Virus record (IMG/VR): IMGVR_UViG_3300010885_020237
Location: 29,678 to 93,677 of that record
Direction: 5' to 3' (one strand)
Source: a virus
DNA: 64,000 nt
This document shows, in pieces, positions 2,541 to 28,273 of the stretch. The position numbers and the translations under genes are program-made. The notes beneath the pieces were generated by a model. The model searched no databases. It saw only the letters and a list, made by a program, of their open reading frames with translations, and was not told the origin of the DNA. How positions within the stretch are numbered: position 1 is the stretch's first letter; every line of letters starts with the position of its first letter.

Positions 2541-3206
2541 TTAGGTGTAGTTCCATTTATATCCTCCTGATATTCTATTGTTTTTGATAGCCACGTGAAT
2601 ATTAGAATTGTTTACACCGATAAAATCTGCAGCTTTTTTTAGCGATTGAAATGTACTAATTATCTCCATCGTATCTTTATTAAGCATATTCACACTTTTT
2701 ATATTATGAGCAAGTTTTCCGACTTTAGATTCTCTTAATCTTCTTATACCGTCTTCTGTCATATTATGAGGTTTTCTTAGTTTCTGTTTTTGTTCCTCTG
2801 TTCTTTTTTGACCTTTAACAGCTAAGCCTACTTTTGCAGCATGTTCTTTACTTTTTTTCTTTCCTTTTAACGCTTTAGATATTGCTTTAGAGTGAGCTAG
2901 TCTGGCTTCTTCATAACATCTTGAAGATATTATAATCCAATGTTCTTTAGGCGTTGATCCTCTACCATTACACATTCTCCAAAAAGAAAAAGCTCTAGAT
3001 TGAATATTTTCATCTAATCTATATAAAAGCCAATGCGCAATAAAATGCTCTCTTGCTGTTAATCTAACTATATTTTCTTCAATATCTAACCCATTTTCTG
3101 ATTTAGGCTTTATATGATGCCTTTCGAAGTAAGGTAAAGTTTTATATTCTCTATTTTTAGCTTTATCAATTAGGTTATCGTAATGTTTTCTGTAATCCAC
3201 TTTCAT
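2541..3206 (-). CDS. HNH homing endonuclease with NUMOD3/NUMOD1-like DNA-binding repeats
   Basis: ERHHIKPKS...ENIVRLTAREHFIAHWLL; KGKKKSKEH and RTEEQKQKL repeats; C-terminal FQSLKKAADF...GYKW. Confidence 0.88.
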   Translation of the reverse strand: MKVDYRKHYDNLIDKAKNREYKTLPYFERHHIKPKSENGLDIEENIVRLTAREHFIAHWLLYRLDENIQSRAFSFWRMCNGRGSTPKEHWIIISSRCYEEARLAHSKAISKALKGKKKSKEHAAKVGLAVKGQKRTEEQKQKLRKPHNMTEDGIRRLRESKVGKLAHNIKSVNMLNKDTMEIISTFQSLKKAADFIGVNNSNIHVAIKNNRISGGYKWNYT

Positions 3207-3241
3207 AATAAATATGTAGATTGGATGTTTTTAGCATTACT

Positions 3242-5554
3242 CTAATGTCCTTCAAGCCAGTTTTTGGCTAAAGATGGTACAGCAATTAATGGGACGTCCA
3301 ATTTGGTTGTATTCTCCATTTTATCCTGTATAATAGCTGCGGCTTCTGCTGCTCTTTCATATTCTACTTCTATGATTAACTGATCGTGGATTTGCGCGCA
3401 GACCCAACCTTTAATGCCTTTTGCGATAAACTCTCTATTTATATGTATAGCTGCTCTATTTACTATAGATGCAGCTAAACCTTGTATTTGTACATTACAG
3501 CTATTATTTAGTCCATTTTTATAGTCTCTATATAATTTAGTTATTTGATCTTCTCCAAATTCATAAGATAGTTGTTTTTTTATATTCCAATCTAATAAAG
3601 AATCCCCTAATTCAGCATATATTTCTTTTACTTTAGGCAAGTGTCTTATTCTACCTACTTGAGTTTTTATATAACCAAATTCTTTTACATATTTAACTGA
3701 ATTCTCCATCCATTTTTTTAATTTTGGAAATCCATTTAAATAACCGTCTACTAATTTTTTAGCATCTTTAGTAGGAATATCTAAATTTTTACCTAAAGCA
3801 TACGGTGACATTCCATAAGGAATACCTAGAGCATAGGCTTTTGCTTTATTTCTAATTTTTGGTTTGTGTTTTCTTAAAAAATTATCAGCTTTTTTATCTG
3901 GAGAATAGTCGTATAATTTTTCTGTTTGAATAGCTATTGTACAATAGAAATCCCATCCATTTTTAAAGATATCGATTAATCCTATATCACCTGAGACATG
4001 TGCAAATACACTCGGCTCTAGAGAAGAGTAATCATCATCGACAAATATATTGTGTTCATCAGGAATAAAAAATGCTCTAACTCTATTATTATACTCTAAT
4101 ACAATTGGATCATCATCGCCTTCTTCTTTTGGTCTAGGTAACTGTTGAGCATCAGATCCGTAGCGGCCAGAAACTGTACCATGTTGTTTGTAACTAAAAT
4201 AGTAACGGCCATCTTCTTGAGCGTCTAAGAATCTTTCCACATAAGTAGATTTAATCTTTAATAATTTATTATAGATTCTTAAGTTTCTTGCCCATTCTTC
4301 TGTATCTCCAATTAATTGGATCATGTCATCATCAAATTGTGGCTTTCCACCTTTTGTAGTAGATAATGCTTTTATGCCCAAAGCTTTGAATGCAATTTCA
4401 CCTAATTGATCTTTAGACTGTATGTTAAACCAATTACCGTCATTAGATTCTTTCCATAGTTTTAATTGTATTTTTACAATTTGATCCTTATCAAGCATTT
4501 GAGCATCACCGTGAAGTAAGAACTGTTTTACTGCGCTATCTGGGATTCTTAAAATATTTGCATTAGCTATATTGTACTTACCACTTTTCTCTGACTTTGG
4601 AAAGTCTATACCGCTTTGATTGATTAATTCTATGGCAAATGTTCCTCTATTGTTTGCGGGGAATTCCTGCGCCGCTTTTAACATGATCCAGTTCTTTACT
4701 TCAGCGTAACTAAGTAACTGATCCATAACCTTAGTTCTGTGATCCTCTAGAGCTTGTGTAACTTCTTCTTTTGTTCTACGAATAAGATCCATATCCAATT
4801 TAACACCTATACTTTCCATTGGAATGGTTACCTCTTTGTAAAGTGGCATTACTTCATCTTCAAAAAAGAAGGCTTCTAATCCCTGATCGTAAAGGTCTTT
4901 TATAAAGTGATTGTATACTCTAAGTGTTAAATCTGTATCTGCTGCAGCATATTCGGCTAATATGTTAATATCAGCTTTCCATATCTCGTAATTTTCTCTT
5001 GTAACAGAACCACCATTTTCTTTGATCGATGATTTTAGCGCAAGCTGCTCTTCATTGGCAGCTTTTTCTATATCAAGTCCAAGTTCTGTTTGAATCATTT
5101 TAGCAATACTTTTTAATCCAAATGGAGAATTGGATCCAAATCCAGCTCCTTCTTCATTTACAGTATGAACTAATAACATTGTATCAGCGTGTAAGGAATC
5201 TAACAAATCAATGCCGTAAAAACACTTAATAAATCTGCCATCGAAAGAAAAATTATGAGCGATTAATTTTTTACCATGAAGTAAATTAAGTATTTTTTTA
5301 GCTATATCATGACATGATACGCCGTCTACAGTATTTTCTATAAGAGAATTTGATTCTTTATCATATAATAGTGTAGGCAAATAATATCCATAGCCCTCTA
5401 TTGCTGATATAGACAGACCTATTATTTTTCCTTTTCTAGGATTTAAACTGTTAGTTTCAGTGTCTATTGATATTATGTCATAACTTTTTATATGGTCAAC
5501 TAGATTTTTGATATCTTCTTTTGTTGAAACATGTACATACTTTTTATTTATCAT
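3242..5554 (-). CDS. polA: Family A DNA polymerase with 3'-5' exonuclease domain
   Basis: ExoI DTETNSL, ExoII HNFSFD, ExoIII YAAADT; GTVSGRYGS; motif A DYSSLE, motif B RNKAKAYALGIPYG, motif C QIHDQ. Confidence 0.95.
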   Translation of the reverse strand: MINKKYVHVSTKEDIKNLVDHIKSYDIISIDTETNSLNPRKGKIIGLSISAIEGYGYYLPTLLYDKESNSLIENTVDGVSCHDIAKKILNLLHGKKLIAHNFSFDGRFIKCFYGIDLLDSLHADTMLLVHTVNEEGAGFGSNSPFGLKSIAKMIQTELGLDIEKAANEEQLALKSSIKENGGSVTRENYEIWKADINILAEYAAADTDLTLRVYNHFIKDLYDQGLEAFFFEDEVMPLYKEVTIPMESIGVKLDMDLIRRTKEEVTQALEDHRTKVMDQLLSYAEVKNWIMLKAAQEFPANNRGTFAIELINQSGIDFPKSEKSGKYNIANANILRIPDSAVKQFLLHGDAQMLDKDQIVKIQLKLWKESNDGNWFNIQSKDQLGEIAFKALGIKALSTTKGGKPQFDDDMIQLIGDTEEWARNLRIYNKLLKIKSTYVERFLDAQEDGRYYFSYKQHGTVSGRYGSDAQQLPRPKEEGDDDPIVLEYNNRVRAFFIPDEHNIFVDDDYSSLEPSVFAHVSGDIGLIDIFKNGWDFYCTIAIQTEKLYDYSPDKKADNFLRKHKPKIRNKAKAYALGIPYGMSPYALGKNLDIPTKDAKKLVDGYLNGFPKLKKWMENSVKYVKEFGYIKTQVGRIRHLPKVKEIYAELGDSLLDWNIKKQLSYEFGEDQITKLYRDYKNGLNNSCNVQIQGLAASIVNRAAIHINREFIAKGIKGWVCAQIHDQLIIEVEYERAAEAAAIIQDKMENTTKLDVPLIAVPSLAKNWLEGH

Positions 5555-6188
5555 AAATGAATTTTACCTTTATTTTATTTTTATTCCACGTAGAAATTGT
5601 AGCTGACGATCTATTAAAAAATTCAGCTGCATCTTGTATAGTTAAGAAAACAGTGCCAGATTCTATACACAGTACTTTTTGCGCTCTACCATTAGAGGAT
5701 CCTGATATCTTTTTGGATTGAGTGATCTTTCTTTCATTAGTCCATAAATCCTGAAATTTTTTCTTATAATCAGCTGTTGCATATTTTATTTTTAATTTAT
5801 CGCCTAATTCACGAGCGATTTTTTTATCTTTCATAGGATTATGAAATCTCATAAATTGTGATTGTTCTGGTCTTTTTTTACCAAACATTATACATTTGTC
5901 TCCCGATCCAGATCCACTTGCTGATGCACATTGCATTGAGTAATATGGCTTTTTAAAAAGTTTATCCAATAAAAGCTGCTCTTGTAAATACGCCTCTTCT
6001 CTAGTTGCATATTCATTTAATATTTCGTATTCAAACATATTATATTTTAAATACGCTCTTTGCATTATAGAATTTCCATGTGTACCTTTAGTTAATTCTC
6101 GAAAATGATCTTTCATTCTCCTTTTTAAATTATTAGTAGATCCAATTTGTTTCCATGGACCTATTTTAATTTGATATACTACATTCAT
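5544..6188 (-). CDS. GIY-YIG-family homing endonuclease (divergent)
   Basis: VVYQI...QIGSTNNLKRRMKDH...HGNSIMQRAY...EQ, plus a C-terminal NUMOD1-like HTH. Start placed at ATG 6188 rather than the track's TTG 6206. Confidence 0.75.
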   Translation of the reverse strand: MNVVYQIKIGPWKQIGSTNNLKRRMKDHFRELTKGTHGNSIMQRAYLKYNMFEYEILNEYATREEAYLQEQLLLDKLFKKPYYSMQCASASGSGSGDKCIMFGKKRPEQSQFMRFHNPMKDKKIARELGDKLKIKYATADYKKKFQDLWTNERKITQSKKISGSSNGRAQKVLCIESGTVFLTIQDAAEFFNRSSATISTWNKNKIKVKFIYDK

Positions 6189-6290
6189 AAAATAAAAATG
6201 GTTCAAAAAAACAAAGGAGCTCTAACCTTCCTAAGTTTAAATGAACCAATAAGTTTATAACAGATAACTAGTTAGAGTAGTTTCTATCCA
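6189..6290 (-). ncRNA. Structured leader RNA, copy 1 (two hairpins with complementary 7-nt loop sequences)
   Basis: Hairpin A GGAU-AGA-AACUA[CUCUAAC]UAGUU-AUCU; hairpin B UGGUUCA..AAAC..AGGA[AG-GUUAGAG-C]UCCU..GUUU..UGAACCA. The architecture is shared with 13809-13912. Confidence 0.75.
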
Positions 6291-6307
6291 TTATAAATAT
6301 GCAATCT

Positions 6308-6496
6308 CTATTCTTTTTTACTGTATGGAAATAATTCGTTTAATTTATCCTGTCTTCTTTTACAACCGCAATCTTCTTCTCCTAGCGCTTTAGCTATTTT
6401 ATCTGCTAATACATCTATTTTTAGCGCATGAGTTATTTTTGCGATAGTATCACCTAGACCTTTAGGTTCTAAATTATCTTCATCATTTTTTTTCAT
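6308..6496 (-). CDS. Small hypothetical phage protein (GLGDT...DCGCxxRQ type)
   Basis: KGLGDTIAKITH...DCGCKRRQDKLNELFPY; likely start MKKNDED at 6496. Confidence 0.75.
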   Translation of the reverse strand: MKKNDEDNLEPKGLGDTIAKITHALKIDVLADKIAKALGEEDCGCKRRQDKLNELFPYSKKE

Positions 6497-6689
6497 CTTC
6501 AATTTGCTTTTTGGCAATAACTTCACCAAATTTAGTACTAATTGCAATGGTTATAATACCCATTTGTTGCCACATTGATTCTAAATCTTTTTTAAGTTTA
6601 TTAATTAACCTAAATTGATATACTTGCATCACCATTAATAAGGTAATAATAAGCAAGTAAAAATTCTCGAGTGTAATATTAATTGTCAT
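6483..6689 (-). CDS. Small membrane protein, hypothetical
   Basis: Hydrophobic N-terminal segment FYLLIITLLMVM; ATG at 6689 just downstream of a TATATTTG box. Confidence 0.65.
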   Translation of the reverse strand: MTINITLENFYLLIITLLMVMQVYQFRLINKLKKDLESMWQQMGIITIAISTKFGEVIAKKQIEDEKK

Positions 6690-6692
6690 AAC

Positions 6693-6700
6693 CAAATATA
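6693..6700 (-). promoter_or_regulatory. Bacteroidota-type -7 promoter box (TAnnTTTG)
   Basis: TATATTTG on the coding strand in an intergenic gap; no clear -33 TTTG. Confidence 0.4.
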
Positions 6701-6739
6701 AACTTTAATTTTGTAATTTTATTATTTTAATTTTATGTA

Positions 6740-8380
6740 TTATTCACATGATACACAATAGTTGAATTTTTTTGCAAATTCTGAGGCTCCCGAAATGTTA
6801 TGTTGATAATAAAGCGATTTTATTCCCATTTCATGTGCTTGCAACATTAGTGTATTTACTTCTTTTGCGGTGGTATCAGAGGTAATAAATAAATTAAGGG
6901 ATTGACCTTGATCGATATATTTTTGTCTTTGCGCTGCTTGAGTAATAATTTCAGATTGAGATATTTCTCTTGCTGTTTTAAATACTAATTTTTCATCTGC
7001 GGTCAAACAATCTAAATGTAGTACACTGCCTTGTTGTTTTTGAATACTTTCCCAGATTTCGTCTGTATTAAAGCCTTTCTCTTCAAGTAATTTCTCTAAG
7101 AATGTGTTCTTAATAACAAACTTACCTTTAGATAAATCTTTGATCATATAATTACTCATCCAAGGTTCTATACTTTGGGAAACTTGCATGATAAATGCCG
7201 AAGATGTGGTAGGTGCAATGGCTTGAGTGGTGGTATTTCTTCTACCAGTTCCTAGAGTCATTTCACATTCTCCAAACATGTCCGCTAATTCTTGCGATGC
7301 TTTTATAGAATTTTCTTGTATATTTTTTTGAATAGCGATGTTTAAATTTCTTGCTTCTAAGCTTTCGAAAGGAATCATTTTACTCTGTAATAAAGAGTGA
7401 TATCCTAATCTACCTATTCCCAATGCTCTGTGCTTTTTAGAAAAACTAACCGCTCTAGCTAAAAACTTTACTTTCGATGCTTTTTCAATAAATTCAGTCA
7501 TCGCAGCATCCAATAAAAAAGTTAATACTTCTACGCAATCAGTATCTTTCCATTCTTGGTAGTAAAAATCATTCATAGATCCTAAATCACAAACAAATGA
7601 ATTCTCATTATCAGAAGGCAACATAATTTCTGTGCACATCTGTGAAGCTTTAATTAGATTCTTTCCTTTATAAACTTCTGGAACTGATTCGTGATTGTTT
7701 GCGTTATCTGTAAAAAATATATACGGCAATCCAGTTTCAAACTTCTTTTGAATTACTTTTGCCCATGTTTTTCTTTTTTTAGCATCTCCGCTTTTCATTG
7801 CTTCTAACCAAGCATCTGATACGCAAACTCCCCAAGTAATGTGTTGAATTGGATCTCCTTCTGATCTGATATTTAGCCACTCTTCAAAGTCAGGATGATC
7901 GATATCTTGATAAGCTGAGAAATATCCTCTTCTTACTGATCCTTGATTCATTGATTGAGCACATGACTGAAACAATTCTAAGAAAGCCTTTGATCCATTG
8001 CTGTGTCCATTATCCGTGATTTTTGATCCTCTTGATCTTAGCGCTCCAAAATAACCAGAAGTTCCACCACCATATTTACTCATTGTGCCTATTTCTGCTA
8101 CTGAGCTTAAGATGCTTTCAACGCTATCATCTACATATACTCCGAAACAGCTAATTGGTAAACCTCTATTAGTACCAAAGTTAGTCCACATTGGAGTACT
8201 TAAACTAATCCAACCATTGGCTATGTACTGCTGTAATTTTTCACTATATCCTTTGAGCCTTAATATTTGTTCTGCTGCATCTCCAATTACTTTTATTCTA
8301 TCTTGCACAGTTTGTCCTGGAAGTAGGTAATCTTTCTCTAAAAATTGTTTTGAGTACTTATTGAGCCAAGTGATATTCAT
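6740..8380 (-). CDS. nrdA: Ribonucleotide reductase class Ia alpha subunit (short, no ATP cone evident)
   Basis: LPISCF, GGGTSG, SQMCTEI, RALGIG, AIAPTTSS, IDQGQSLN, SLYY and C-terminal CVSCE. Confidence 0.95.
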   Translation of the reverse strand: MNITWLNKYSKQFLEKDYLLPGQTVQDRIKVIGDAAEQILRLKGYSEKLQQYIANGWISLSTPMWTNFGTNRGLPISCFGVYVDDSVESILSSVAEIGTMSKYGGGTSGYFGALRSRGSKITDNGHSNGSKAFLELFQSCAQSMNQGSVRRGYFSAYQDIDHPDFEEWLNIRSEGDPIQHITWGVCVSDAWLEAMKSGDAKKRKTWAKVIQKKFETGLPYIFFTDNANNHESVPEVYKGKNLIKASQMCTEIMLPSDNENSFVCDLGSMNDFYYQEWKDTDCVEVLTFLLDAAMTEFIEKASKVKFLARAVSFSKKHRALGIGRLGYHSLLQSKMIPFESLEARNLNIAIQKNIQENSIKASQELADMFGECEMTLGTGRRNTTTQAIAPTTSSAFIMQVSQSIEPWMSNYMIKDLSKGKFVIKNTFLEKLLEEKGFNTDEIWESIQKQQGSVLHLDCLTADEKLVFKTAREISQSEIITQAAQRQKYIDQGQSLNLFITSDTTAKEVNTLMLQAHEMGIKSLYYQHNISGASEFAKKFNYCVSCE

Positions 8381-8401
8381 TTACTTTATTATTTTATTTT
8401 T

Positions 8402-9376
8402 TTAAAAAAGGTCTTCTGCGTTTATTGATTGCGCTTTCTTTAAATACGCAGTCGGTGTTTTGTGAAAGAAATCAGTGTGAGTTTCGCTATCTACTTCTAG
8501 ATTAAACCATGCCGATTGCTTTAATAATTCTTTATTTATTTCAAATATTGGTTGAGCTTCAATCATTTTGAGAGATTCATTAAATCTATTCTTTGTAAAT
8601 TCTAATACAATTTCTTTAGATAAAAAAGATAATTCTCCGAGTTCAAATATCCAATTAATGATTTTTTCTTCAGCAGCGTAAGCTTTTTTACATGCTTTTT
8701 CTACAGTTTTATAAAAGTCTTCATTAAACCAATCAGGATTTTCTTTTCTGATTAAGTTAATGATATATGCTCCTGCCATTCCATGAAGTTTTTCCTCTTT
8801 CATAGTGGCTTGAATAACATTATCTATGCCTTTAAAAGTATTTTTTTGTTTATTAAACGATTTAATAATAAAAAATTGGCTGAATAGAGAACAGTTTTCA
8901 ACAAATAAAGAAAATAGCGCTAATGTTGACGTGTATGACTGTTTATTATTAGATTCAGCATTTTTAAGATACTTACTTAAATAGTCTATACGACCCTGCA
9001 TAACTGGATTATCCATCAACTTATCAAAAGCTTCATTAAATCCTAGTAATTCTAATACATGACTGTAAGCTCTACTGTGTCTAACTTCAGATTCTCCAAA
9101 TGTGCTTCCTAAAGCATCAAATTCTGGTTTTGGAAATTGGGAATACAGATTGCTCCAAAATCTTTTTACATTAACTTCTATTTGAGATATAGCTAACATC
9201 GCATTTTTAACTGCATTCTTCTCAAGATCATTTAAATTAACTTTAAAATCCTGTACGTCAGAATCAAAAGAGTATTCAGTATGAATCCAATAGCTATGAT
9301 TTATAGCATCAACAAATTCATATAATTCGGGGTATTCAAAAGGTTTAAAAGAAACTCTCTTATCAAATATGGACAT
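8402..9376 (-). CDS. nrdB: Ribonucleotide reductase class Ia beta subunit
   Basis: FKPFEYP, ESEVRHSRAY, VENCSLFSQF, KEEKLH, DFF; di-metal ligands and radical Tyr present. Confidence 0.95.
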   Translation of the reverse strand: MSIFDKRVSFKPFEYPELYEFVDAINHSYWIHTEYSFDSDVQDFKVNLNDLEKNAVKNAMLAISQIEVNVKRFWSNLYSQFPKPEFDALGSTFGESEVRHSRAYSHVLELLGFNEAFDKLMDNPVMQGRIDYLSKYLKNAESNNKQSYTSTLALFSLFVENCSLFSQFFIIKSFNKQKNTFKGIDNVIQATMKEEKLHGMAGAYIINLIRKENPDWFNEDFYKTVEKACKKAYAAEEKIINWIFELGELSFLSKEIVLEFTKNRFNESLKMIEAQPIFEINKELLKQSAWFNLEVDSETHTDFFHKTPTAYLKKAQSINAEDLF

Positions 9377-9408
9377 ACACTTATTTTTTTAATACGTTAT
9401 ATACAAAA

Positions 9409-9451
9409 GACTAACCATTAGAGCGCTTTTGGCACTCTATGCGGTGTAGTC
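9409..9451 (-). promoter_or_regulatory. Extended bulged hairpin in the nrdB leader
   Basis: GACUA-C-ACC-GCA-UAGAGUGC[CAAAA]GCGCUCUA-AU-GGU-UAGUC, a GC-rich island in an AT-rich gap. Confidence 0.5.
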
Positions 9452-9469
9452 AATAAAATTTTAATTTAA

Positions 9470-9682
9470 TTAGGCCGAGGGTAACTTACTCTGTTTGTTA
9501 TTATTAGCAGTATAACTGGCTGCTATTTTTACATTATTAACATTAATGCTGTTATTATTTTGAGTAACAGGACCACCAGAGTTTAAAGCCGCAATTTGAT
9601 CGTTATACTTAACTGGTGTCTCAACGATTCTATAAGCATCGCCTTTTTTACTTTTCTTGAATATGTCTAATAAAAAACTCAT
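9470..9682 (-). CDS. Hypothetical protein
   Basis: Likely starts MSFLLDIFKK at 9682, 18 nt downstream of an ATATTTAT box; the longer track ORF overlaps the helicase. Confidence 0.6.
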   Translation of the reverse strand: MSFLLDIFKKSKKGDAYRIVETPVKYNDQIAALNSGGPVTQNNNSINVNNVKIAASYTANNNKQSKLPSA

Positions 9683-9725
9683 AGTATCTGTTTTGTTGTA
9701 ATAAATATGATCCTTTCTGATAAAA

Positions 9726-11120
9726 TTACTTTGATAGTTCGAAGAATTTTTTATGAAGATAATCTTTCTCATCAGAACTAAATGCAGCTTTATTTTGCAT
9801 CTGTGTTCTAGGTGGTCCATTCTGATTATTTCCATTATCAAAGGTAAGATCATCTTCCTCCATTTCATCTTTATTGATGTCTATCGCACCATTACTAGTA
9901 TTCACCTTTGCTGCATAAGTCATCCCATCTGATCCATATCTATTCTTCATGATATGTATACGTCCTGTTCCATTGACTTTGTCCTGACGCTTCCTAGACA
10001 GCGACATTGCAAAATCTGCTATCATCATCTTATTATAAGATCCTGCTGCTTTATCACCTTCAATTACATCGTCTTTTGCGCCCATTCTATTTACTTGCGA
10101 TACTGTCCATACAGGTACTTTTAATTCTCTAGCCATACCTTTAACAGCGCTATATATATCGTCAATCGCATCTTTTGGATCAATAGAGCGAGTTTTACTT
10201 TTTAATAGATCTACGTAATCAATAATTACAATGTCTGGAGCAGATCCTAAATCTCTACACTTTTGGATATGGGCTTCAATAGTATTGACTCCTGCTTTAC
10301 CCATAGGAAATTCTTTAATAATTAATTTTCCTTTTAGCTTTTCTATCGCAGAATTAACTTTGTCTTTATGCAAGTGTAATTGTTGAGCATCGATTCCAGT
10401 AAATAAAGCATCATATCTTTTACCAACATAGTCTTCTGAAAGTTCTAGAGTGTAATGCGCGACATTAAATCCTGCAACTACTGCTTGTGCGCCTAAGTTT
10501 ACAAGCATCCATGATTTACCTCCACCTGGGTTTCCAAATATTAAACCAAGATCACCGATTCCTAATCCTCCCATTAATAGATCATTAATATTTCCCCATG
10601 GAGTTGGTACAGCTGATCTTTGTTCTTGTCTATATCTAGTCTCGATATCTTTTTCGTATTCGTGACCTATACTTTTATTTTGTCCAGCTTTGGATGCTAC
10701 GTTAATAATGTGTCTAATGTCTTCCCATTCTCCTTTCTCTAACAATTTAACAGATTCTAAAATAGCATTTTTTAATTGTTGATTCTGACAAAAGTTTGCG
10801 AATTCTTGTTCTACGTATTCCTTATCTTCATTAGTTGCTTTTAGTGCTTCTTTTAATTGCTCTATTACGCTAACTTTTAAAATATCATTATCAATCTTTT
10901 TTACTTCTACTTGAAGAGATTCTGGAGAAGGTGTCGTATGATACTTGTAATAATAACGTAGTACTTCTGCAACAATCCATTTATGTGATGGTGAATCAAA
11001 CATCTCTGTGTTTAACACATCATTCATATTTTGTAAGAATTCTTTGTGCTTAAGTAAACTAGATAAAACTTTTATTTGAAATCCAGTTCCGTAACTCTGT
11101 AACGATCCTAATACTGCCAT
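9726..11120 (-). CDS. DnaB-like replicative helicase (T4 gp41-like)
   Basis: Walker A GNPGGGKS, YTLELSE, IIDYVDLL, VWTVSQVNR, MKNRYG. Confidence 0.95.
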   Translation of the reverse strand: MAVLGSLQSYGTGFQIKVLSSLLKHKEFLQNMNDVLNTEMFDSPSHKWIVAEVLRYYYKYHTTPSPESLQVEVKKIDNDILKVSVIEQLKEALKATNEDKEYVEQEFANFCQNQQLKNAILESVKLLEKGEWEDIRHIINVASKAGQNKSIGHEYEKDIETRYRQEQRSAVPTPWGNINDLLMGGLGIGDLGLIFGNPGGGKSWMLVNLGAQAVVAGFNVAHYTLELSEDYVGKRYDALFTGIDAQQLHLHKDKVNSAIEKLKGKLIIKEFPMGKAGVNTIEAHIQKCRDLGSAPDIVIIDYVDLLKSKTRSIDPKDAIDDIYSAVKGMARELKVPVWTVSQVNRMGAKDDVIEGDKAAGSYNKMMIADFAMSLSRKRQDKVNGTGRIHIMKNRYGSDGMTYAAKVNTSNGAIDINKDEMEEDDLTFDNGNNQNGPPRTQMQNKAAFSSDEKDYLHKKFFELSK

Positions 11121-11134
11121 AACTTATTTTATTT

Positions 11135-12163
11135 TTAACGATACTTGCTTAATTGATTGAACTTTTCAAACAGCCATATTTGTAAATTGTTTATACTTTT
11201 TCCAAGATCATCTTCTTCATAGAACTCAGCGAATTCTTTTGGTCTAAATGTCTTAGTGGGATTCTCTAGCACGTATTCTATTTCTAATAATGAATCCTCT
11301 GGTATATTTGGATTTTTTAAATCCATTAATTGTTCATTGATCCTTAACTGATGTTCGAAGTTAGCAATACTTTCGTATGCTTTTCCAGTTCCAGTTTGTG
11401 CTTTCTCTAGTACTTCATCTAATGTAGCTACTTCATTATTAGCAAATTCAGGGTATAATTTAGTAACTGTTTTAATTCCTAATCCTTTAATGCCAGGTAC
11501 GTTATCTCCACTGTCTCCTAACAATACTTCTTGATTTAAGAAGTTTTGAGGCGTTACTCCGTACTCTTCTAATACCTGCTTGTATTGATAGAATTTTTTC
11601 TTGATAGGAGAATATACTGTAACTTTTTCATTCACGAGCTGTAAATAGTCTCGGTCGCTAGATACAATTGTAACTTCTCCATTTAATTTACCAGTTATAT
11701 AACCAATAACATCATCAGCTTCAATTTTGTCTATTGATAAAAGATCTACTGGTAAGCATTTTAGGTAATCTATTAACCTCAATATTTGATTTGTAATAGA
11801 TTCTGCTTCCTGCTCTTGATCATCGAATAAATCCCAATTGGTCACTCTACGATAACCTCTATTGGCTTTATATTCTGGATATAAGTACCTTTTATTTGTA
11901 GATCCTCCTTGGCCATCGAACACTAATATTACTCTAGTGGGTCGAATAAGATTGATGGCGTATCCCAATGATTTGAGATAGCCCGTCAATCCACCGATAT
12001 GTACACCGTGTTTATTAACATGATTGATGATAGTAAAAGATCTTATAAAAGCATTTAATGAATCTATGATTAAGACTCTGTCATTTAACTTTAAAGGCTC
12101 TTCTTTTGCCGATTCTTCAACTGTGTTGAGAGACTCTAACATTTGTTTATATCTATCTTCCAA
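11135..12163 (-). CDS. 5'-3' exonuclease / flap endonuclease (T4 RNase H / PolI N-terminal type)
   Basis: LIIDSLN, VFDG, YPEYKANR, EADDVIG, SSDRDYLQL, GDSGDNVPGIKGLG. Confidence 0.93.
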   Translation of the reverse strand: MEDRYKQMLESLNTVEESAKEEPLKLNDRVLIIDSLNAFIRSFTIINHVNKHGVHIGGLTGYLKSLGYAINLIRPTRVILVFDGQGGSTNKRYLYPEYKANRGYRRVTNWDLFDDQEQEAESITNQILRLIDYLKCLPVDLLSIDKIEADDVIGYITGKLNGEVTIVSSDRDYLQLVNEKVTVYSPIKKKFYQYKQVLEEYGVTPQNFLNQEVLLGDSGDNVPGIKGLGIKTVTKLYPEFANNEVATLDEVLEKAQTGTGKAYESIANFEHQLRINEQLMDLKNPNIPEDSLLEIEYVLENPTKTFRPKEFAEFYEEDDLGKSINNLQIWLFEKFNQLSKYR

Positions 12164-12165
12164 TG

Positions 12166-13233
12166 TTATTCGTTTTCTGATGTATCGAAAATGTCTTTTG
12201 CGTCTGTGTCTTGTTCTTCAACAATATCAAAGTCTGCTGATCCAAGTACTTGTAACCACTGATGAGAGTACTGCTTCTTATATTTTTCTAACGCAGAAGG
12301 TTTATCATCAATAAATCCATGAACTGTCATGATTAATTTATTCGCAGCAGTAACTCCTGTGATGTGATTCTTATCGCAAGAAAGTTTAGTTCTTTTAGCA
12401 AATTCAACATCTTTGCCATTTTTGCTGGCTTTGATTTTATTAGTCCCGGAATTTGTAACATTTCCAAAAGTAATAATAAGCGATGAATCAAAAAACATTG
12501 TGTCACCTCCTTTATTCTTCATCTTTGGTTGACCCATAATATGTTCAGCTTTTGCAACCCAAACTTTATTGATCGCTACAAGAGTGTTTGTATAAGGTTG
12601 ACTCTCCTTTCTTGACATTACAATCTTTTGATTAACAAAATTACCGAACTGTTGAGACATTGCACCGGCATTCCATTCGTTGTTATTCGTAGATTTTTCT
12701 ATTGACATCTTACATGGAATAGATCCAACAGAATCCCAAAAGAAACATAGGTCATAAGGTAAATTTCCTTTCTTTTGTTCGTCTAAAATGTCTAATACAA
12801 AAGCAGATACATCTTCAATACAATTTAATTTCTCTCTATCGATGTATACAAAGAATCCTGTGTAGTCATTAACTACTCCATCAGCATCTGCAACTTCATC
12901 AAATTTAAGTCCCATTTCTCTAGCGTGGTCCCAACTCCATTTCATCTCTGTGATAATGAATACTGGTAATATGCCCATCTTTTGAGCATTAACAGCAGCT
13001 TCTAATAGTGCAGTTGTTTTACCTGTATCAGAATGACCTCTTAAAAGAGTAATGTGACCAACTGGAATTCCAGGAATTTGAAGAGCGTCTTGAAATGCTG
13101 GAGATAGTGGTATCCATGAAGCGTCTTTAAATTTTACAGATGTCGAAGATAAGTTCTTTGATTTTTTAAATTTGTCTAAACTAAATTCAGACTTGATGGC
13201 ACTTGATATTTTGCCAGTGAGTGCTTTCGCCAT
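12166..13233 (-). CDS. RecA/UvsX-like recombinase
   Basis: GIPVGHITLLRGHSDTGKTT Walker A, FFWDSVGS Walker B, KGGDTMFF. Confidence 0.88.
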   Translation of the reverse strand: MAKALTGKISSAIKSEFSLDKFKKSKNLSSTSVKFKDASWIPLSPAFQDALQIPGIPVGHITLLRGHSDTGKTTALLEAAVNAQKMGILPVFIITEMKWSWDHAREMGLKFDEVADADGVVNDYTGFFVYIDREKLNCIEDVSAFVLDILDEQKKGNLPYDLCFFWDSVGSIPCKMSIEKSTNNNEWNAGAMSQQFGNFVNQKIVMSRKESQPYTNTLVAINKVWVAKAEHIMGQPKMKNKGGDTMFFDSSLIITFGNVTNSGTNKIKASKNGKDVEFAKRTKLSCDKNHITGVTAANKLIMTVHGFIDDKPSALEKYKKQYSHQWLQVLGSADFDIVEEQDTDAKDIFDTSENE

Positions 13234-13247
13234 AACTAAATTTTTAT

Positions 13248-13808
13248 TTAATGTAATGCTTTATTTTTTCTTGAAGAAGGGTTTTTTTGCGGTCCTCTTG
13301 GGCCTCTCATTTTTTGCTTCGTTTCTTCTGTGTGAGCATTTCCTATATGCGCTTTAGACATATTTAATTTAGATTGTTCGGTATGAATTCTGCCTTTATG
13401 TTTTTCAGAAATTTTTAAACGAGTTTCTTTTGAACAAGGCGGATATTTTTTGCCTTTATTTCCGGAGCCGCTATTATTTCCTTTTGCTGATAGACGCATT
13501 TTATTTTTTGATTCGTTAGAAAAAATAAAATTAATCATGCCTTCTCCTCCGTCTGTAAGATTTACTAGAGAACCGGTTCCGATATTTTGTCTGCCTAGAC
13601 TTTTAATAAGTTCGATTTCTATTATTCCAGAATCTTCCCAAGACAAATCTTCATAAAGAATATCAATAAAATAGCCTACTTTATTAACTATATTATGCCA
13701 ATGTACATTTCTATCAGCTCTTGAAAATGCTCTTTTTAAAGTTTTTCCTCTACCTATGTAGAAAATTTCATTTGTGTCTTTTCTTCTATGCTGATATATT
13801 ATAGCCAT
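13248..13808 (-). CDS. GIY-YIG-like homing endonuclease with NUMOD3 repeats
   Basis: IIYQHRR...FYIGRG...RA...E...LVNLTDGGEG; SKETRLKIS and HTEETKQKM repeats. Confidence 0.85.
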   Translation of the reverse strand: MAIIYQHRRKDTNEIFYIGRGKTLKRAFSRADRNVHWHNIVNKVGYFIDILYEDLSWEDSGIIEIELIKSLGRQNIGTGSLVNLTDGGEGMINFIFSNESKNKMRLSAKGNNSGSGNKGKKYPPCSKETRLKISEKHKGRIHTEQSKLNMSKAHIGNAHTEETKQKMRGPRGPQKNPSSRKNKALH

Positions 13809-13912
13809 AAAATAAAAAAGAACTCAGAGGATTCAAAGATCGCGGAATGACCAATGTTTCGTGAGTTCAATAAATTTATTATAGATAGTTAATTCCGCTA
13901 ACTTTCTATCCA
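13809..13912 (-). ncRNA. Structured leader RNA, copy 2 (two hairpins with complementary 7-nt loops)
   Basis: Hairpin A GGAU-AGAA-AGUUA[GCGGAAU]UAACU-AUCU; hairpin B GAACUCA..CA..GGUC[AUUCCGC]GAUC..UG..UGAGUUC. Confidence 0.75.
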
Positions 13913-13933
13913 CAATAAATATGTTCTCCATTC

Positions 13934-14755
13934 TTAAAATGAAAACAATTCATCGATTTTGGAATCGAGATCTGTTTTCGTCGTACTTAATGTGAATGGT
14001 TTCGCAGCTGGTGCTTCTTTCTCCCATGGTAAATCTCCAATAGGATCAGTTTTTACTACAACTGAATCAGCATTTTGCTTGATCTCTTCTTCAGGATTTA
14101 AGTGCGACATTAATGCGCTTTTCATCTCTTCATAAGTGTAACGTTTAAACTGAGTCATTGGATCTGGTTGAGTAGTCAACCACTGTTTAACTTTTGCAGC
14201 ATCATCAGATAGAGGAGTAATTTTAGTTCTTACTCTTACGCTAGACGTGTTGTACGATAAACCAGTCGTTTCTTTTCCTTGTACATCAATAGTGATATCA
14301 CGACCTTCAATGGGATCTGTGAAATCTCCTACGTCCTCATCTTCAGCTAATGCTAACAAATCCATGTAGACTTGTTTACCAAACCCCCATAAAAGAACGC
14401 CTTTGTCTTCTTCGCCTCTAACGATAACTGGTACATAGATTCTCATCTTTGGTTCCAATTTTTTAGCTAGCTGCCAATCTTCTTTAACTGAAGACTTTCT
14501 TAGTCCTTGAGAAAACTCAACGATAGGATCTTTTTCGCCATAATTTGACAAAGAGATCATGGTGTTTTTATTTCCAATTCCATAATGGAAATAAAGCTCC
14601 TTAAAAGGATTGCTTTTTGTGTACATCGAAGGTACAATACGAACTAAATGTTTACCCACTGTTGGGCCCCAAAGCGTTTTTGCCAGTTCGCCTTTCTGGC
14701 CGCCTCTTGGATTTTGTAACGTAGCGAGTCTTTGCTTTAATGCAGATATATCCAT
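13934..14755 (-). CDS. Single-stranded DNA-binding protein (T4 gp32-like)
   Basis: VRIVP...PFKELYFHY...DPIVEF...GVLLWGFGK...DPIEGRDI, an acidic DELFSF tail, and its position in the replication module. Confidence 0.8.
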   Translation of the reverse strand: MDISALKQRLATLQNPRGGQKGELAKTLWGPTVGKHLVRIVPSMYTKSNPFKELYFHYGIGNKNTMISLSNYGEKDPIVEFSQGLRKSSVKEDWQLAKKLEPKMRIYVPVIVRGEEDKGVLLWGFGKQVYMDLLALAEDEDVGDFTDPIEGRDITIDVQGKETTGLSYNTSSVRVRTKITPLSDDAAKVKQWLTTQPDPMTQFKRYTYEEMKSALMSHLNPEEEIKQNADSVVVKTDPIGDLPWEKEAPAAKPFTLSTTKTDLDSKIDELFSF

Positions 14756-14819
14756 AACTATAATTGTTTATGAAGTAAATATAACCTAATCAGGTTATTA
14801 AAAAAATCTAAAACTCGAG

Positions 14820-27666: not shown

Positions 27667-28245
27667 CTAGTTTATTTGTGTTTTTAATAATTTCGTTACG
27701 TAAGCTTTAGATTTATTTAAATATTTTGCTAAAGCCGTCTGTGATTCAAATTCAATTTTGTCGTATACAACCTTTAATCTTTTTGGACTAGCTTTATCTT
27801 TCCAATATCCTGGTTTTCCATAAAGAGGATTTAATTCTCCAACTCTACCAAAACAAGGATTTTTTTCTCCTTTAGAAGCCAAACTCTTTTTTCTTTTTGA
27901 CTCTTCAGTGTGAATTTGATTTTTAGCGGCTAATCTACATTTGTCTTTAGTTTCTTTTGTGTGTCTAAATCCAACTGTTCCTTCTCCACCATCAGTCAAA
28001 TTAACCAATGTTCCAAGTCGTAAATCTCGTCTACCGTAAAGAGCTATAAATTCTTTTTCTTTTTCTTTTGCTTGTTCCCAAGTTAAGTCTTCAAATAGAA
28101 TTTCAATTTCGTAACCTTTTGCGGCGATATTCTTCCAGATTCTAGTTCGATTTGTTTTATGATATGCTCTAGATTCGCTTTCTCCTATTCCTATATAAAA
28201 AACCTCTTGTTTGTCCGTTCTTATGTGTCTGTATAATATTGCCAA
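27667..28245 (-). CDS. GIY-YIG-like homing endonuclease (homologue of 13248..13808)
   Basis: ILYRHIR...FYIGIG...RA...LVNLTDGGEG, HTKETKDK and HTEESKRK repeats; TTG start. Confidence 0.83.
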   Translation of the reverse strand: MAILYRHIRTDKQEVFYIGIGESESRAYHKTNRTRIWKNIAAKGYEIEILFEDLTWEQAKEKEKEFIALYGRRDLRLGTLVNLTDGGEGTVGFRHTKETKDKCRLAAKNQIHTEESKRKKSLASKGEKNPCFGRVGELNPLYGKPGYWKDKASPKRLKVVYDKIEFESQTALAKYLNKSKAYVTKLLKTQIN

Positions 28246-28273
28246 AATGTTCTCTTATAAATATGGCTTTCAC

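What the first reader, a model, noticed from the sequence alone, without database searches (positions are those of the whole stretch)
6189..13922. Covarying kissing-loop RNA element found twice, each time leading a GIY-YIG homing endonuclease (6189-6300 and 13809-13922)
Seen in sequence: two ~100-nt leaders 7.6 kb apart share one layout on the coding strand: ATATTTAT box, UGGAUAGAAA, hairpin A with a 7-nt loop, AUCU, linker UAAAyUUAUUG, long hairpin B, then UUUUUAUUUUAUG. The paired positions differ but pairing is preserved. Stem A is AACUA/UAGUU versus AGUUA/UAACU. The base of B is UGGUUCA/UGAACCA versus GAACUCA/UGAGUUC. The loop of A is the exact complement of 7 nt in the loop of B in both copies (CUCUAAC/GUUAGAG; GCGGAAU/AUUCCGC). 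G-U wobbles work only on the minus strand, consistent with RNA. The two downstream nucleases are not close relatives, and the close homologue of the second (27667..28245) lacks the element, so the RNA seems to move as its own module. I do not recognise it as a known family. Inference: a translational switch restraining a toxic nuclease, an RNA cofactor or scaffold for the nuclease (by analogy with HEARO/OMEGA RNAs), or a ribozyme/processing element.
Basis: partly seen in the sequence, partly recalled or inferred. Interest (0 to 1): 0.88.

Follow-up and report, generated by a model that had tools for sequence, protein, structure and literature searches.

The report
Kissing-loop RNA leader of homing endonucleases
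Two selfish DNA-cutting-enzyme genes in this Flavobacterium-type phage are each preceded by a ~115-base folded RNA with two hairpins whose 7-base loops always pair but use a different sequence in almost every copy. This RNA family is not in Rfam, and it most likely limits and times nuclease production.

Summary
Both leaders (6302..6186 and 13924..13806, minus strand) fold as described. Related freshwater phage contigs yielded 56 unique copies that could be fully read (a few more are truncated). Every one of the 56 has at least 7 nt of perfect loop-loop complementarity, in 20 different loop "codes". On a 19-sequence alignment, 27 of 39 pairs change on both sides (0 of 500 shuffles reach this). 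G-U outnumbers A-C 23 to 4, which indicates sense-strand RNA. Rfam 15 has no match.

- The ATATTTAT box is the phage's general late-type promoter, and it forms the 5' arm of a 12-14 bp lower stem of hairpin A.
- Hairpin B plus the U-run looks like an intrinsic terminator and sits where relatives without the nuclease gene keep a canonical terminator.
- The downstream gene is always a homing endonuclease, GIY-YIG or HNH.

The same loop code precedes unrelated nucleases, and the leader core is swapped as a block between orthologous loci.

Best reading (0.55): a cis-acting leader of the endonuclease cassette that restrains and times expression. How it does so is not shown. A ribozyme or an RNA cofactor is unlikely.

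This scan has already noted the same class on other DNA. I found no publication describing it.

The parts
6293..6300 (-). Copy 1: ATATTTAT box. It is a late-type promoter element and lies in the 5' arm of the lower stem of hairpin A. The predicted transcription start is the G at 6288.
   Evidence: Box statistics. The box-to-ATG spacing clusters at exactly 4 nt, which fits leaderless mRNAs. The box also precedes the tail sheath and baseplate hub genes. The promoter function and the start site are inferred.
6254..6297 (-). Copy 1: hairpin A. Lower stem 6297..6286 with 6265..6254, including two G-U pairs upstream of the predicted start. Bulge AGA 6285..6283. Upper stem AACUA 6282..6278 with UAGUU 6270..6266. 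Loop CUCUAAC 6277..6271.
6199..6248 (-). Copy 1: hairpin B. Base UGGUUCA 6248..6242 with UGAACCA 6205..6199. Interrupted middle section. Apical stem closes the loop GUUAGAG 6226..6220, which is the exact complement of loop A.
6186..6198 (-). Copy 1: U-run UUUUUAUUUU 6198..6189, followed directly by the AUG 6188..6186. There is no Shine-Dalgarno sequence.
5544..6188 (-). HEG1, a GIY-YIG homing endonuclease of 214 aa. Its stop codon overlaps the start of the family-A DNA polymerase gene (5554).
   Evidence: Pfam GIY-YIG E = 2.4e-7 and phrog_314. Overlap seen.
13915..13922 (-). Copy 2: ATATTTAT box. The predicted transcription start is the G at 13910.
13874..13920 (-). Copy 2: hairpin A. Lower stem, AGAA bulge, upper stem AGUUA/UAACU, loop GCGGAAU 13898..13892.
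13820..13868 (-). Copy 2: hairpin B. Base GAACUCA 13868..13862 with UGAGUUC 13826..13820. Apical stem GGUC/GAUC. Loop AUUCCGC 13848..13842, the exact complement of loop A.
13806..13819 (-). Copy 2: U-run UUUUUUAUUUU 13819..13809, followed by the AUG 13808..13806.
13248..13808 (-). HEG2, a homing endonuclease of 186 aa with a NUMOD3 motif and a GIY-YIG-type N-terminus. It lies between the gp32-like SSB gene and the UvsX gene.
27667..28264 (-). HEG3, a paralogue of HEG2. It has the ATATTTAT box (28264..28257) but no kissing leader, and it starts with TTG.
2541..3215 (-). HEG4, an HNH homing endonuclease just downstream of the polymerase gene. It has the box (3215..3208) but no leader. The N-terminus typical of its family begins at the GTG at 3200.
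   Evidence: phrog_655 E = 1.4e-37. Sequence context. The N-termini of relatives are listed.

Best explanation
The element is the 5' leader of a mobile cassette made of a late-type promoter, a structured leader and a homing-endonuclease gene, found in Flavobacterium-type (Immutovirus-like) phages. It acts in cis, as RNA, to keep the nuclease at a low and timed level without breaking the operon into which the cassette is inserted.

Proposed working (steps marked shown or inferred):
1. The ATATTTAT box is a promoter, and transcription starts about 5 nt after it, at the conserved G of GAUAG (inferred).
2. Two RNA forms therefore exist (inferred). Read-through transcripts from the upstream gene carry the full 12-14 bp lower stem of hairpin A. 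Self-initiated transcripts carry only a short 5'-terminal hairpin A.
3. Hairpin B has a G+C-rich base followed by about 10 nt that is 88% U and then directly by the AUG (shown). It behaves as a leaky intrinsic terminator and as a poor start site with no Shine-Dalgarno sequence, so only a fraction of transcripts or ribosomes reach the nuclease gene (inferred).
4. The 7-bp loop-loop kiss docks A on B and locks the leader into one compact fold (pairing shown by covariation; consequence inferred).

Whether the kiss changes termination, translation or RNA stability is not known.
For: - RNA structure: 95.5% of cells paired, 27 of 39 pairs with changes on both sides, kissing helix 100% paired, 0 of 500 shuffles as high. 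There are 20 loop codes in 56 unique copies, all perfectly complementary. G-U 23 versus A-C 4.
- Exclusive association: every complete copy is followed by a homing endonuclease, from at least six N-terminal types in the GIY-YIG and HNH superfamilies. SSB loci in relatives that lack the nuclease also lack the leader.
- Box as late-type promoter: 24 versus 4 strand bias, 20 of the 24 coding-strand copies intergenic. It precedes the sheath and baseplate hub genes. Spacing to the ATG is bimodal, with 6 cases at exactly 4 nt and none at 6-10 nt.
- Read-through form under selection: G-U wobbles in the lower stem lie upstream of the predicted start site.
- B as terminator-like element: base stem of 5-8 bp with 3-5 G-C pairs, tail of 10-11 nt in 44 of 53 copies, 88% U. 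The two B hairpins are two of only four terminator-like sites on the coding strand of the 93.7-kb record.
- Position: in 71 of 75 relatives without the nuclease, the SSB-UvsX junction holds a canonical hairpin plus T-run 17-27 nt before the UvsX ATG. The cassette replaces it.
- The two leaderless nuclease genes in the window use weak TTG and GTG starts, which would be another way to limit output.
- Precedent: T-even endonuclease genes are limited by late promoters inside hairpins, by 5' terminators (about 30% in mobE) and by RNase E processing (PMC2988022).
Against: - No transcript ends, termination or translation data are available.
- Hairpin A does not touch the start codon. Nearest-neighbour folding of read-through and self-initiated forms shows no consistent change in AUG accessibility.
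- The polymerase start overlaps the HEG1 stop, and the UvsX gene starts 14 nt after HEG2, with no box in between. B therefore cannot be a tight terminator.
- A purely cis role does not by itself explain why the loops are the most variable part: 39% mean identity against 90-92% for the lower-stem arms.
- Whether two long hairpins joined by a 7-nt linker can kiss in cis was not modelled.
Confidence: 0.55

Rival explanations
1. The stretch from the box promoter to the U-run of hairpin B is a small-RNA gene of about 97 nt, or hairpin A is processed out of longer transcripts. Its coded loops then act in trans on the matching loops of nascent or full-length leaders of the same cassette. This would be a private autoregulatory channel, like the same-transcript antisense RNAs P1 c4 and P4 CI or plasmid kissing-loop attenuators.
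For: - The layout promoter, two hairpins, terminator-like hairpin with U-run is the usual layout of a small-RNA gene.
- The loops are hypervariable while the rest is conserved.
- Records with several copies always carry different codes: six different codes in one 52.7-kb contig, and two or three different codes in others.
- A 7-bp helix between two fully paired 7-nt loops on long neighbouring hairpins may be strained in cis (inference).
Against: - By my rough estimate from the code frequencies, distinct codes within genomes would arise by chance about one time in ten, so this is not significant.
- The variable stems also covary, so loop diversity needs no special selection.
- Cis pairing is kinetically favoured.
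- No separate RNA species has been shown.
Confidence: 0.2
2. The element is an RNA processing and stability module. The long hairpin A (about 19 bp with a bulge) is an RNase III-type site, or the conserved A/U-rich linker between the hairpins is an RNase E-type site. Cleavage would separate the upstream mRNA from the endonuclease mRNA, with the hairpins serving as protective 3' and 5' ends.
For: - The single-stranded linker (A)AACUUAUUG between two stable hairpins is invariant.
- The lower stem is conserved even upstream of the predicted start site.
- RNase E processing of segB, segG and Aeh1 mobE transcripts is documented (PMC2988022).
Against: - It gives no role to the loop-loop pairing.
- No cleavage data exist.
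- The conservation of the lower stem can also be explained by the promoter it contains plus the need to stay complementary.
Confidence: 0.1
3. The element works at the DNA level, as an operator with inverted half-sites over the promoter, as a recombination or landing-pad sequence for endonuclease cassettes, or as a cruciform.
For: - The arms of the lower stem form a 12-14 bp inverted repeat that includes the promoter box.
- The conserved leader ends could supply the homology for the block swaps that are observed.
Against: - The strand asymmetry of G-U 23 versus A-C 4 fits RNA on the sense strand only.
- The 7+7 complementarity is confined exactly to the hairpin loops and covaries in 20 codes, which has no obvious meaning in DNA.
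Confidence: 0.05
4. The element is a self-cleaving ribozyme, a riboswitch, or an RNA cofactor or scaffold of the nuclease. These are the first reader's other options.
For: - The fold is compact and contains a pseudoknot.
- The loop pairing of the first hairpin is superficially like the pistol ribozyme (from memory; not supported by the Rfam search).
Against: - Rfam gives no hit, even at E up to 5.
- The unpaired nucleotides are not conserved as a core. The bulge AGAA becomes UUAUA, AAUAA or GAUAA in some copies, and the loops only have to pair.
- The same leader and code serve unrelated GIY-YIG and HNH enzymes, which have their own DNA-binding modules.
Confidence: 0.04

Closest known systems
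Translational-control hairpins with an embedded late or middle promoter in T-even homing-endonuclease genes (I-TevI, I-TevII, I-TevIII, segB, Aeh1 mobE; review PMC2988022)
   Same: - A structured RNA lies directly upstream of a homing-endonuclease gene that sits inside an early or middle operon.
- A phage late-type promoter lies in the 5' arm of a hairpin, so read-through and self-initiated transcripts fold differently.
- The presumed purpose is to limit and delay nuclease synthesis.
   Different: - Here the hairpin that contains the promoter (A) does not contain the ribosome-binding site or the AUG. There is no Shine-Dalgarno sequence at all.
- A second hairpin and a covarying 7-bp loop-loop helix are present, which T-even leaders do not have.
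- There is no sequence relationship, and the host group is different (Bacteroidota-type phages).
Intrinsic terminators at the 5' end of the T4 mobE and segF genes (about 30% termination in mobE; PMC2988022)
   Same: - A G+C-rich stem followed by a U-run stands at the beginning of a free-standing endonuclease gene.
- The terminator must be leaky because essential genes lie downstream.
   Different: - B is a 50-nt interrupted hairpin with a structured interior, not a compact stem with a 4-nt loop.
- It lies before the AUG rather than inside the coding region.
- Its tip is paired to another hairpin.
- Termination has not been measured here.
Same-transcript antisense systems with coded loops (P1/P7 c4 RNA, P4 CI RNA) and kissing-loop transcription attenuators of plasmids (pT181, pIP501). 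Taken from my own knowledge, not checked in papers here.
   Same: - Two complementary loop sequences are encoded in one transcript.
- Specificity is set by a few covarying bases.
- In the plasmid systems the loop-loop contact is coupled to a terminator upstream of the regulated gene.
   Different: - Those systems use a separately made or processed RNA acting in trans. No such species is shown here.
- They control immunity or replication genes, not endonucleases.
- There is no sequence similarity.
Taken from my own knowledge.
   Same: Two hairpin loops of one RNA are Watson-Crick complementary, and their sequences covary between homologues.
   Different: - No conserved ligand pocket is present.
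- There is no link to a packaging motor.
- The element is multi-copy, and each copy stands before a nuclease gene.

Membership tests
Any Rfam 15 family | A covariance-model match at the gathering score, or at least a suggestive E-value | tested here: not met
   No match in the whole window at gathering scores. In 5500..14800 the only hit at E up to 5 is a chance snoRNA match on the other strand.
T-even endonuclease regulatory hairpin (I-TevI type) | It lies immediately upstream of a homing-endonuclease ORF | tested here: met
   Every complete copy is followed by a GIY-YIG or HNH endonuclease gene.
T-even endonuclease regulatory hairpin (I-TevI type) | A phage late or middle promoter lies inside the 5' arm of the hairpin | tested here: inconclusive
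   The ATATTTAT box lies in the 5' arm of hairpin A. It behaves like a late-type promoter by strand bias, intergenic position, exact 4-nt spacing to some ATGs, and presence before the sheath and baseplate genes. No transcription start has been mapped.
T-even endonuclease regulatory hairpin (I-TevI type) | The 3' arm of that hairpin sequesters the Shine-Dalgarno sequence or the start codon | tested here: not met
   The 3' arm of A ends about 65 nt before the AUG, and there is no Shine-Dalgarno sequence. AUG accessibility does not differ consistently between the two transcript forms.
Intrinsic terminator or attenuator | A G+C-rich stem is followed directly by a U-run | tested here: met
   The base stem has 5-8 bp with 3-5 G-C pairs, followed by 10-11 nt that is 88% U. 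A relaxed terminator scan flags both B hairpins.
Intrinsic terminator or attenuator | A compact hairpin with a short loop | tested here: not met
   The base stem encloses a structured interior of 35-36 nt. The standard scan did not report it.
Intrinsic terminator or attenuator | It occupies a position where a terminator is needed | tested here: met
   71 of 75 SSB-UvsX junctions without the nuclease carry a canonical hairpin plus T-run. The cassette replaces it in the window and in L310.
Intrinsic terminator or attenuator | RNA 3' ends are found in the U-run | not testable with these tools
Trans-acting antisense RNA with coded loops (P1 c4, P4 CI, pT181 type) | Complementary loop pairs that covary | tested here: met
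   20 loop codes, all perfectly complementary.
Trans-acting antisense RNA with coded loops (P1 c4, P4 CI, pT181 type) | A discrete small RNA species that acts in trans | not testable with these tools
   No expression data are available.
Self-cleaving ribozyme (for example pistol) or riboswitch | A conserved unpaired core, or a match to a model | tested here: not met
   No Rfam hit. The bulge and the internal loops vary in sequence, and the loops only need to pair.
phi29-type pRNA | One copy per genome, next to the packaging genes | tested here: not met
   There are two to six copies per contig, each before an endonuclease gene in replication or other modules.

The most novel reading that the evidence does not exclude
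Each endonuclease cassette carries its own address. The leader, or a hairpin processed from it, accumulates as a small RNA. This would give several selfish nuclease genes in one phage independent self-limiting feedback, in a set of orthogonal natural RNA-RNA switches.
Probability: 0.15. Interest if true: 0.85.

Novelty: new variant of a known kind. Interest (0 to 1): 0.72.

Why it matters
Homing endonucleases must be expressed enough to spread but not enough to harm the phage or the operon they invade. How they manage this is known only for a few T-even cases. Here a whole group of uncultured Flavobacterium-type phages uses one portable RNA leader for at least six endonuclease types from two superfamilies.

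The covariation support is unusually clean: 20 different 7-bp loop codes. The host group initiates translation without Shine-Dalgarno pairing, so the classical trick of sequestering the ribosome-binding site cannot apply. That makes the element a good entry point into gene control in phages of Bacteroidota.

It would also add an RNA family to Rfam. If the loops work in trans, it would supply a natural library of orthogonal kissing-loop pairs. It shows as well that the regulatory leader and the nuclease ORF recombine independently.

Tried and rejected
- Megablast of 5500..14800 against phage records found nothing.
- The first loose DNA pattern gave mostly chance loci. One over-strict pattern gave none. 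A pattern joining GGATAGAAA to the U-run gave three false hits.
- Most homologues of HEG2 in other phages lack the element: 77 of 80 loci. The leader is therefore restricted to one phage group and is not a feature of the nuclease family.
- The nearest isolate, Flavobacterium phage immuto (polymerase 54% identical), has no copy.
- I tested whether the free 3' arm of A pairs with the U-run and AUG in self-initiated transcripts. RNAfold shows this pairing in only 4 of 12 leaders, so it is not a conserved switch.
- The standard terminator scan does not report B because of its long interior. My first two counts of native terminators were too strict or faulty and were redone.
I did not see this in any of the complete copies I examined.

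Full report
**What is there.** The window is bases 29678-93677 of a 93.7-kb IMG/VR virus record estimated 59% complete. All genes lie on the minus strand. Around the finding the gene order is: gp32-like SSB, [leader 2 + HEG2], UvsX, DnaB, ribonucleotide reductase small and large subunits, small ORFs, [leader 1 + HEG1], family-A DNA polymerase. The polymerase is 54% identical to that of Flavobacterium phage vB_FspM_immuto (160 kb), the nearest isolate. Start codons have A-rich leaders without Shine-Dalgarno sequences, as expected for hosts in Bacteroidota.

**The observation.** Each folds into two hairpins with z-scores of -3.9 and -3.7 against shuffles. The loops are exact complements: CUCUAAC/GUUAGAG in copy 1 and GCGGAAU/AUUCCGC in copy 2.
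The ATATTTAT box and the next bases pair with AUCU(A/G)U(A/U)AUAAA. Hairpin A therefore has a 12-14 bp lower stem, an AGA(A) bulge, a 5-bp upper stem and the 7-nt loop.
- Rfam 15 has no match at gathering scores in the whole window, and none at E up to 5 around the finding.
- The record holds only these two copies.

**Homologues and covariation.** I collected homologues in four ways:
- a DNA pattern scanned over IMG/VR;
- loci around homologues of HEG2;
- two covariance models, R1 and R2, searched over the fetched loci and five whole contigs;
- one metagenome scan.

Together these gave 56 unique parsed elements, all from freshwater or other aquatic phage contigs. Every one has at least 7 nt of perfect Watson-Crick complementarity between the tip of A and the tip of B, in 20 different codes. 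Some codes differ by single compensated steps, for example GCGGAAU, GGGGAAU, GGGCAAU, GCGCAAU and CCGGAAU.
- On the 19-sequence model alignment A5, 95.5% of cells are paired and 27 of 39 pairs change on both sides. The kissing helix is 100% paired with 6 of 7 pairs covarying. None of 500 shuffles reaches these values, and sliding the partners by one to three columns gives 34-44% paired.
- G-U pairs outnumber A-C 23 to 4, so the constraint is on RNA of the coding strand.
- The loops are the most variable part, with 39% mean pairwise identity. The two arms of the lower stem are 90-92% identical.
- Position 6 of loop A is A in 19 of 20 codes.

**What it is attached to.** The ORF that starts right after the U-run is a homing endonuclease in every complete case. 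The ORFs fall into at least six N-terminal types. Three are GIY-YIG-like (MAxVYQH, MxGIYKIT, MKLxYIYVK) and three are HNH (MDYQKIY..HHIxP..IHHIDGN, MEKLYKHHIVP).
- One 52.7-kb contig has six copies, each with a different code.
- Most homologues of HEG2 in other phages have no leader, and phage immuto has none. The leader therefore belongs to one phage group, not to one nuclease family.
- The code follows neither the nuclease type nor, strictly, the locus. For example, GGGCAAU stands before five different nuclease types. After the SSB gene, the same code GCGGAAU precedes two nuclease types and the related code ACGGAAC a third. At another locus the same nuclease type carries four codes (five codes at the locus in all).
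- L282 and L292 are 90-97% identical in both flanks, but the leader from the upper stem of A to the end of B is replaced as a block. The leader core, the nuclease ORF and the locus therefore recombine independently.
- In L271 hairpin A is precisely deleted and the nuclease gene is frameshifted. This is a single anecdote in which leader and nuclease decay together.

**The box is a general late-type promoter.** ATATTTAT occurs 24 times on the coding strand of the record and 4 times on the other strand. Twenty of the 24 are intergenic and lie 1-50 nt before start codons.
- The box precedes the tail sheath and baseplate hub genes, among others, and all four endonuclease genes of the window. It does not precede the main replication genes.
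- The distance from the box to the ATG is bimodal: six cases at exactly 4 nt, none at 6-10 nt, and the rest at 11-50 nt. This fits transcription starting at the fifth base after the box, with some leaderless mRNAs.
- In the leaders that base is the conserved G of GAUAG (6288 and 13910). This start site is inferred, not measured.
- It follows that two RNA forms should exist. Read-through transcripts contain the whole lower stem. Self-initiated transcripts begin inside it.
- The G-U wobbles of the lower stem in both window copies lie upstream of the predicted start. The read-through form is therefore under selection as well.
- This is the layout known from T-even endonuclease genes, where a late promoter sits inside a hairpin (PMC2988022). 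The important difference is that here the 3' arm does not cover the start codon.

**Hairpin B looks like a terminator.** Its base has 5-8 bp with 3-5 G-C pairs. It is followed by 10-11 nt (in 44 of 53 copies) that are 88% U, and then directly by the AUG. All other genes of the phage have A-rich leaders.
- With relaxed criteria the coding strand of the whole record has only four terminator-like sites, and two of them are the B hairpins.
- In 71 of 75 relatives that have SSB next to UvsX without a nuclease gene, the 27-71 nt junction holds a canonical G+C-rich hairpin plus T-run 17-27 nt before the UvsX ATG.
- In the window and in L310 the cassette replaces that terminator, and B with its U-run stands after the SSB gene instead.
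- The polymerase start overlaps the HEG1 stop, and UvsX starts 14 nt after HEG2 with no box in between. Transcription must therefore pass the leader, and B can only be leaky.
- T4 mobE and segF carry comparable 5' terminators, with about 30% termination in mobE.

**How it most likely works.** I commit, at 0.55, to a cis-acting leader of the endonuclease cassette that restrains and times expression.
- B gives partial termination and a poor U-rich start site without a Shine-Dalgarno sequence.
- A distinguishes read-through from self-initiated RNA.
- The kiss fixes the two hairpins in one compact fold.
- Shown: the structure, the association with endonucleases, the modularity, and the positional replacement of a native terminator.
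- Inferred: promoter activity, the start site, termination, and any effect of the kiss.
- Folding without pseudoknots did not reveal a conserved occlusion of the AUG in either RNA form, so the step from structure to output remains open.
- The two leaderless nuclease genes in the window use TTG and GTG starts. That would be another way to keep output low.

**Rivals.**
Favoured by the layout from promoter to terminator, the hypervariable loops, and the different codes within each genome. That last point would arise by chance about one time in ten by my rough estimate.
- A processing and stability module (0.1).
- A DNA-level element (0.05). The G-U asymmetry argues against it.
- A ribozyme, riboswitch or nuclease cofactor (0.04). 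Arguments against: the variable bulge, the absence of a conserved core, no Rfam hit, and the same leader serving unrelated enzymes.

**Novelty.** I found no paper describing this element and no Rfam family. Regulatory RNA in front of homing-endonuclease genes is a known kind. This architecture, two hairpins joined by a coded covarying kiss in phages whose hosts do not use Shine-Dalgarno pairing, is a new variant of it. Earlier notes of this scan describe the same class on other genomes, so the scan has found it before. I tested their main points independently here. I did not see the leader before genes other than endonucleases.

Noticed in passing
window 2541-3215 (-): A fourth homing endonuclease (HNH, phrog_655) lies directly after the polymerase gene. 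The ATATTTAT box ends 1 nt before the annotated ATG. The N-terminus typical of the family (MDYxK.Y) begins at the GTG at 3200, 7 nt after the box, which suggests a nearly leaderless GUG start.
   Followed up: partly
window 27667-28264 (-): HEG3, the paralogue of HEG2, has the box but no kissing leader and starts with TTG. Together with HEG4, this means the leaderless nuclease genes use weak start codons.
   Followed up: partly
G000, whole record, and related loci: Six genes have exactly 4 nt between ATATTTAT and the ATG, and none has 6-10 nt. This suggests leaderless mRNAs that start at the A of the ATG, and a promoter element spanning about -12 to -5.
   Followed up: partly
L282:1800-2200 versus L292:96-497: These are orthologous loci with near-identical flanks and the same nuclease, but a different leader core (code CUACUAC versus GGGCAAU). 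The core has been exchanged as a block between the conserved 5' stem and the U-run.
   Followed up: yes
L271:3286-3374 (-): A decayed cassette. Hairpin A is precisely deleted between its own arms, and the downstream HNH gene is frameshifted after 96 codons. L261 holds the intact orthologue.
   Followed up: partly
L309-L388 (SSB-UvsX junctions): In relatives without the nuclease, a canonical G+C-rich terminator hairpin with a T-run sits only 17-27 nt before the UvsX start codon, with no recognisable promoter between them. UvsX therefore appears to depend on read-through of a terminator.
   Followed up: partly
window 6220-6235 (-), and homologues such as L210, L222, L239: In one class of leader cores the apical stem of hairpin B reads GGA(A/U)G ... 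CUCC. This looks like a Shine-Dalgarno sequence paired to an anti-Shine-Dalgarno sequence, although it lies about 35 nt from the AUG in a host group that does not use Shine-Dalgarno pairing. It may be a trace of a common origin with similar leaders in other phage groups.
   Followed up: no
window 5544-5554 (-): The HEG1 stop codon overlaps the polymerase start codon (ATGATAAATAA). Phage immuto has an unrelated 185-aa ORF in the same overlapping position before its polymerase gene.
   Followed up: partly
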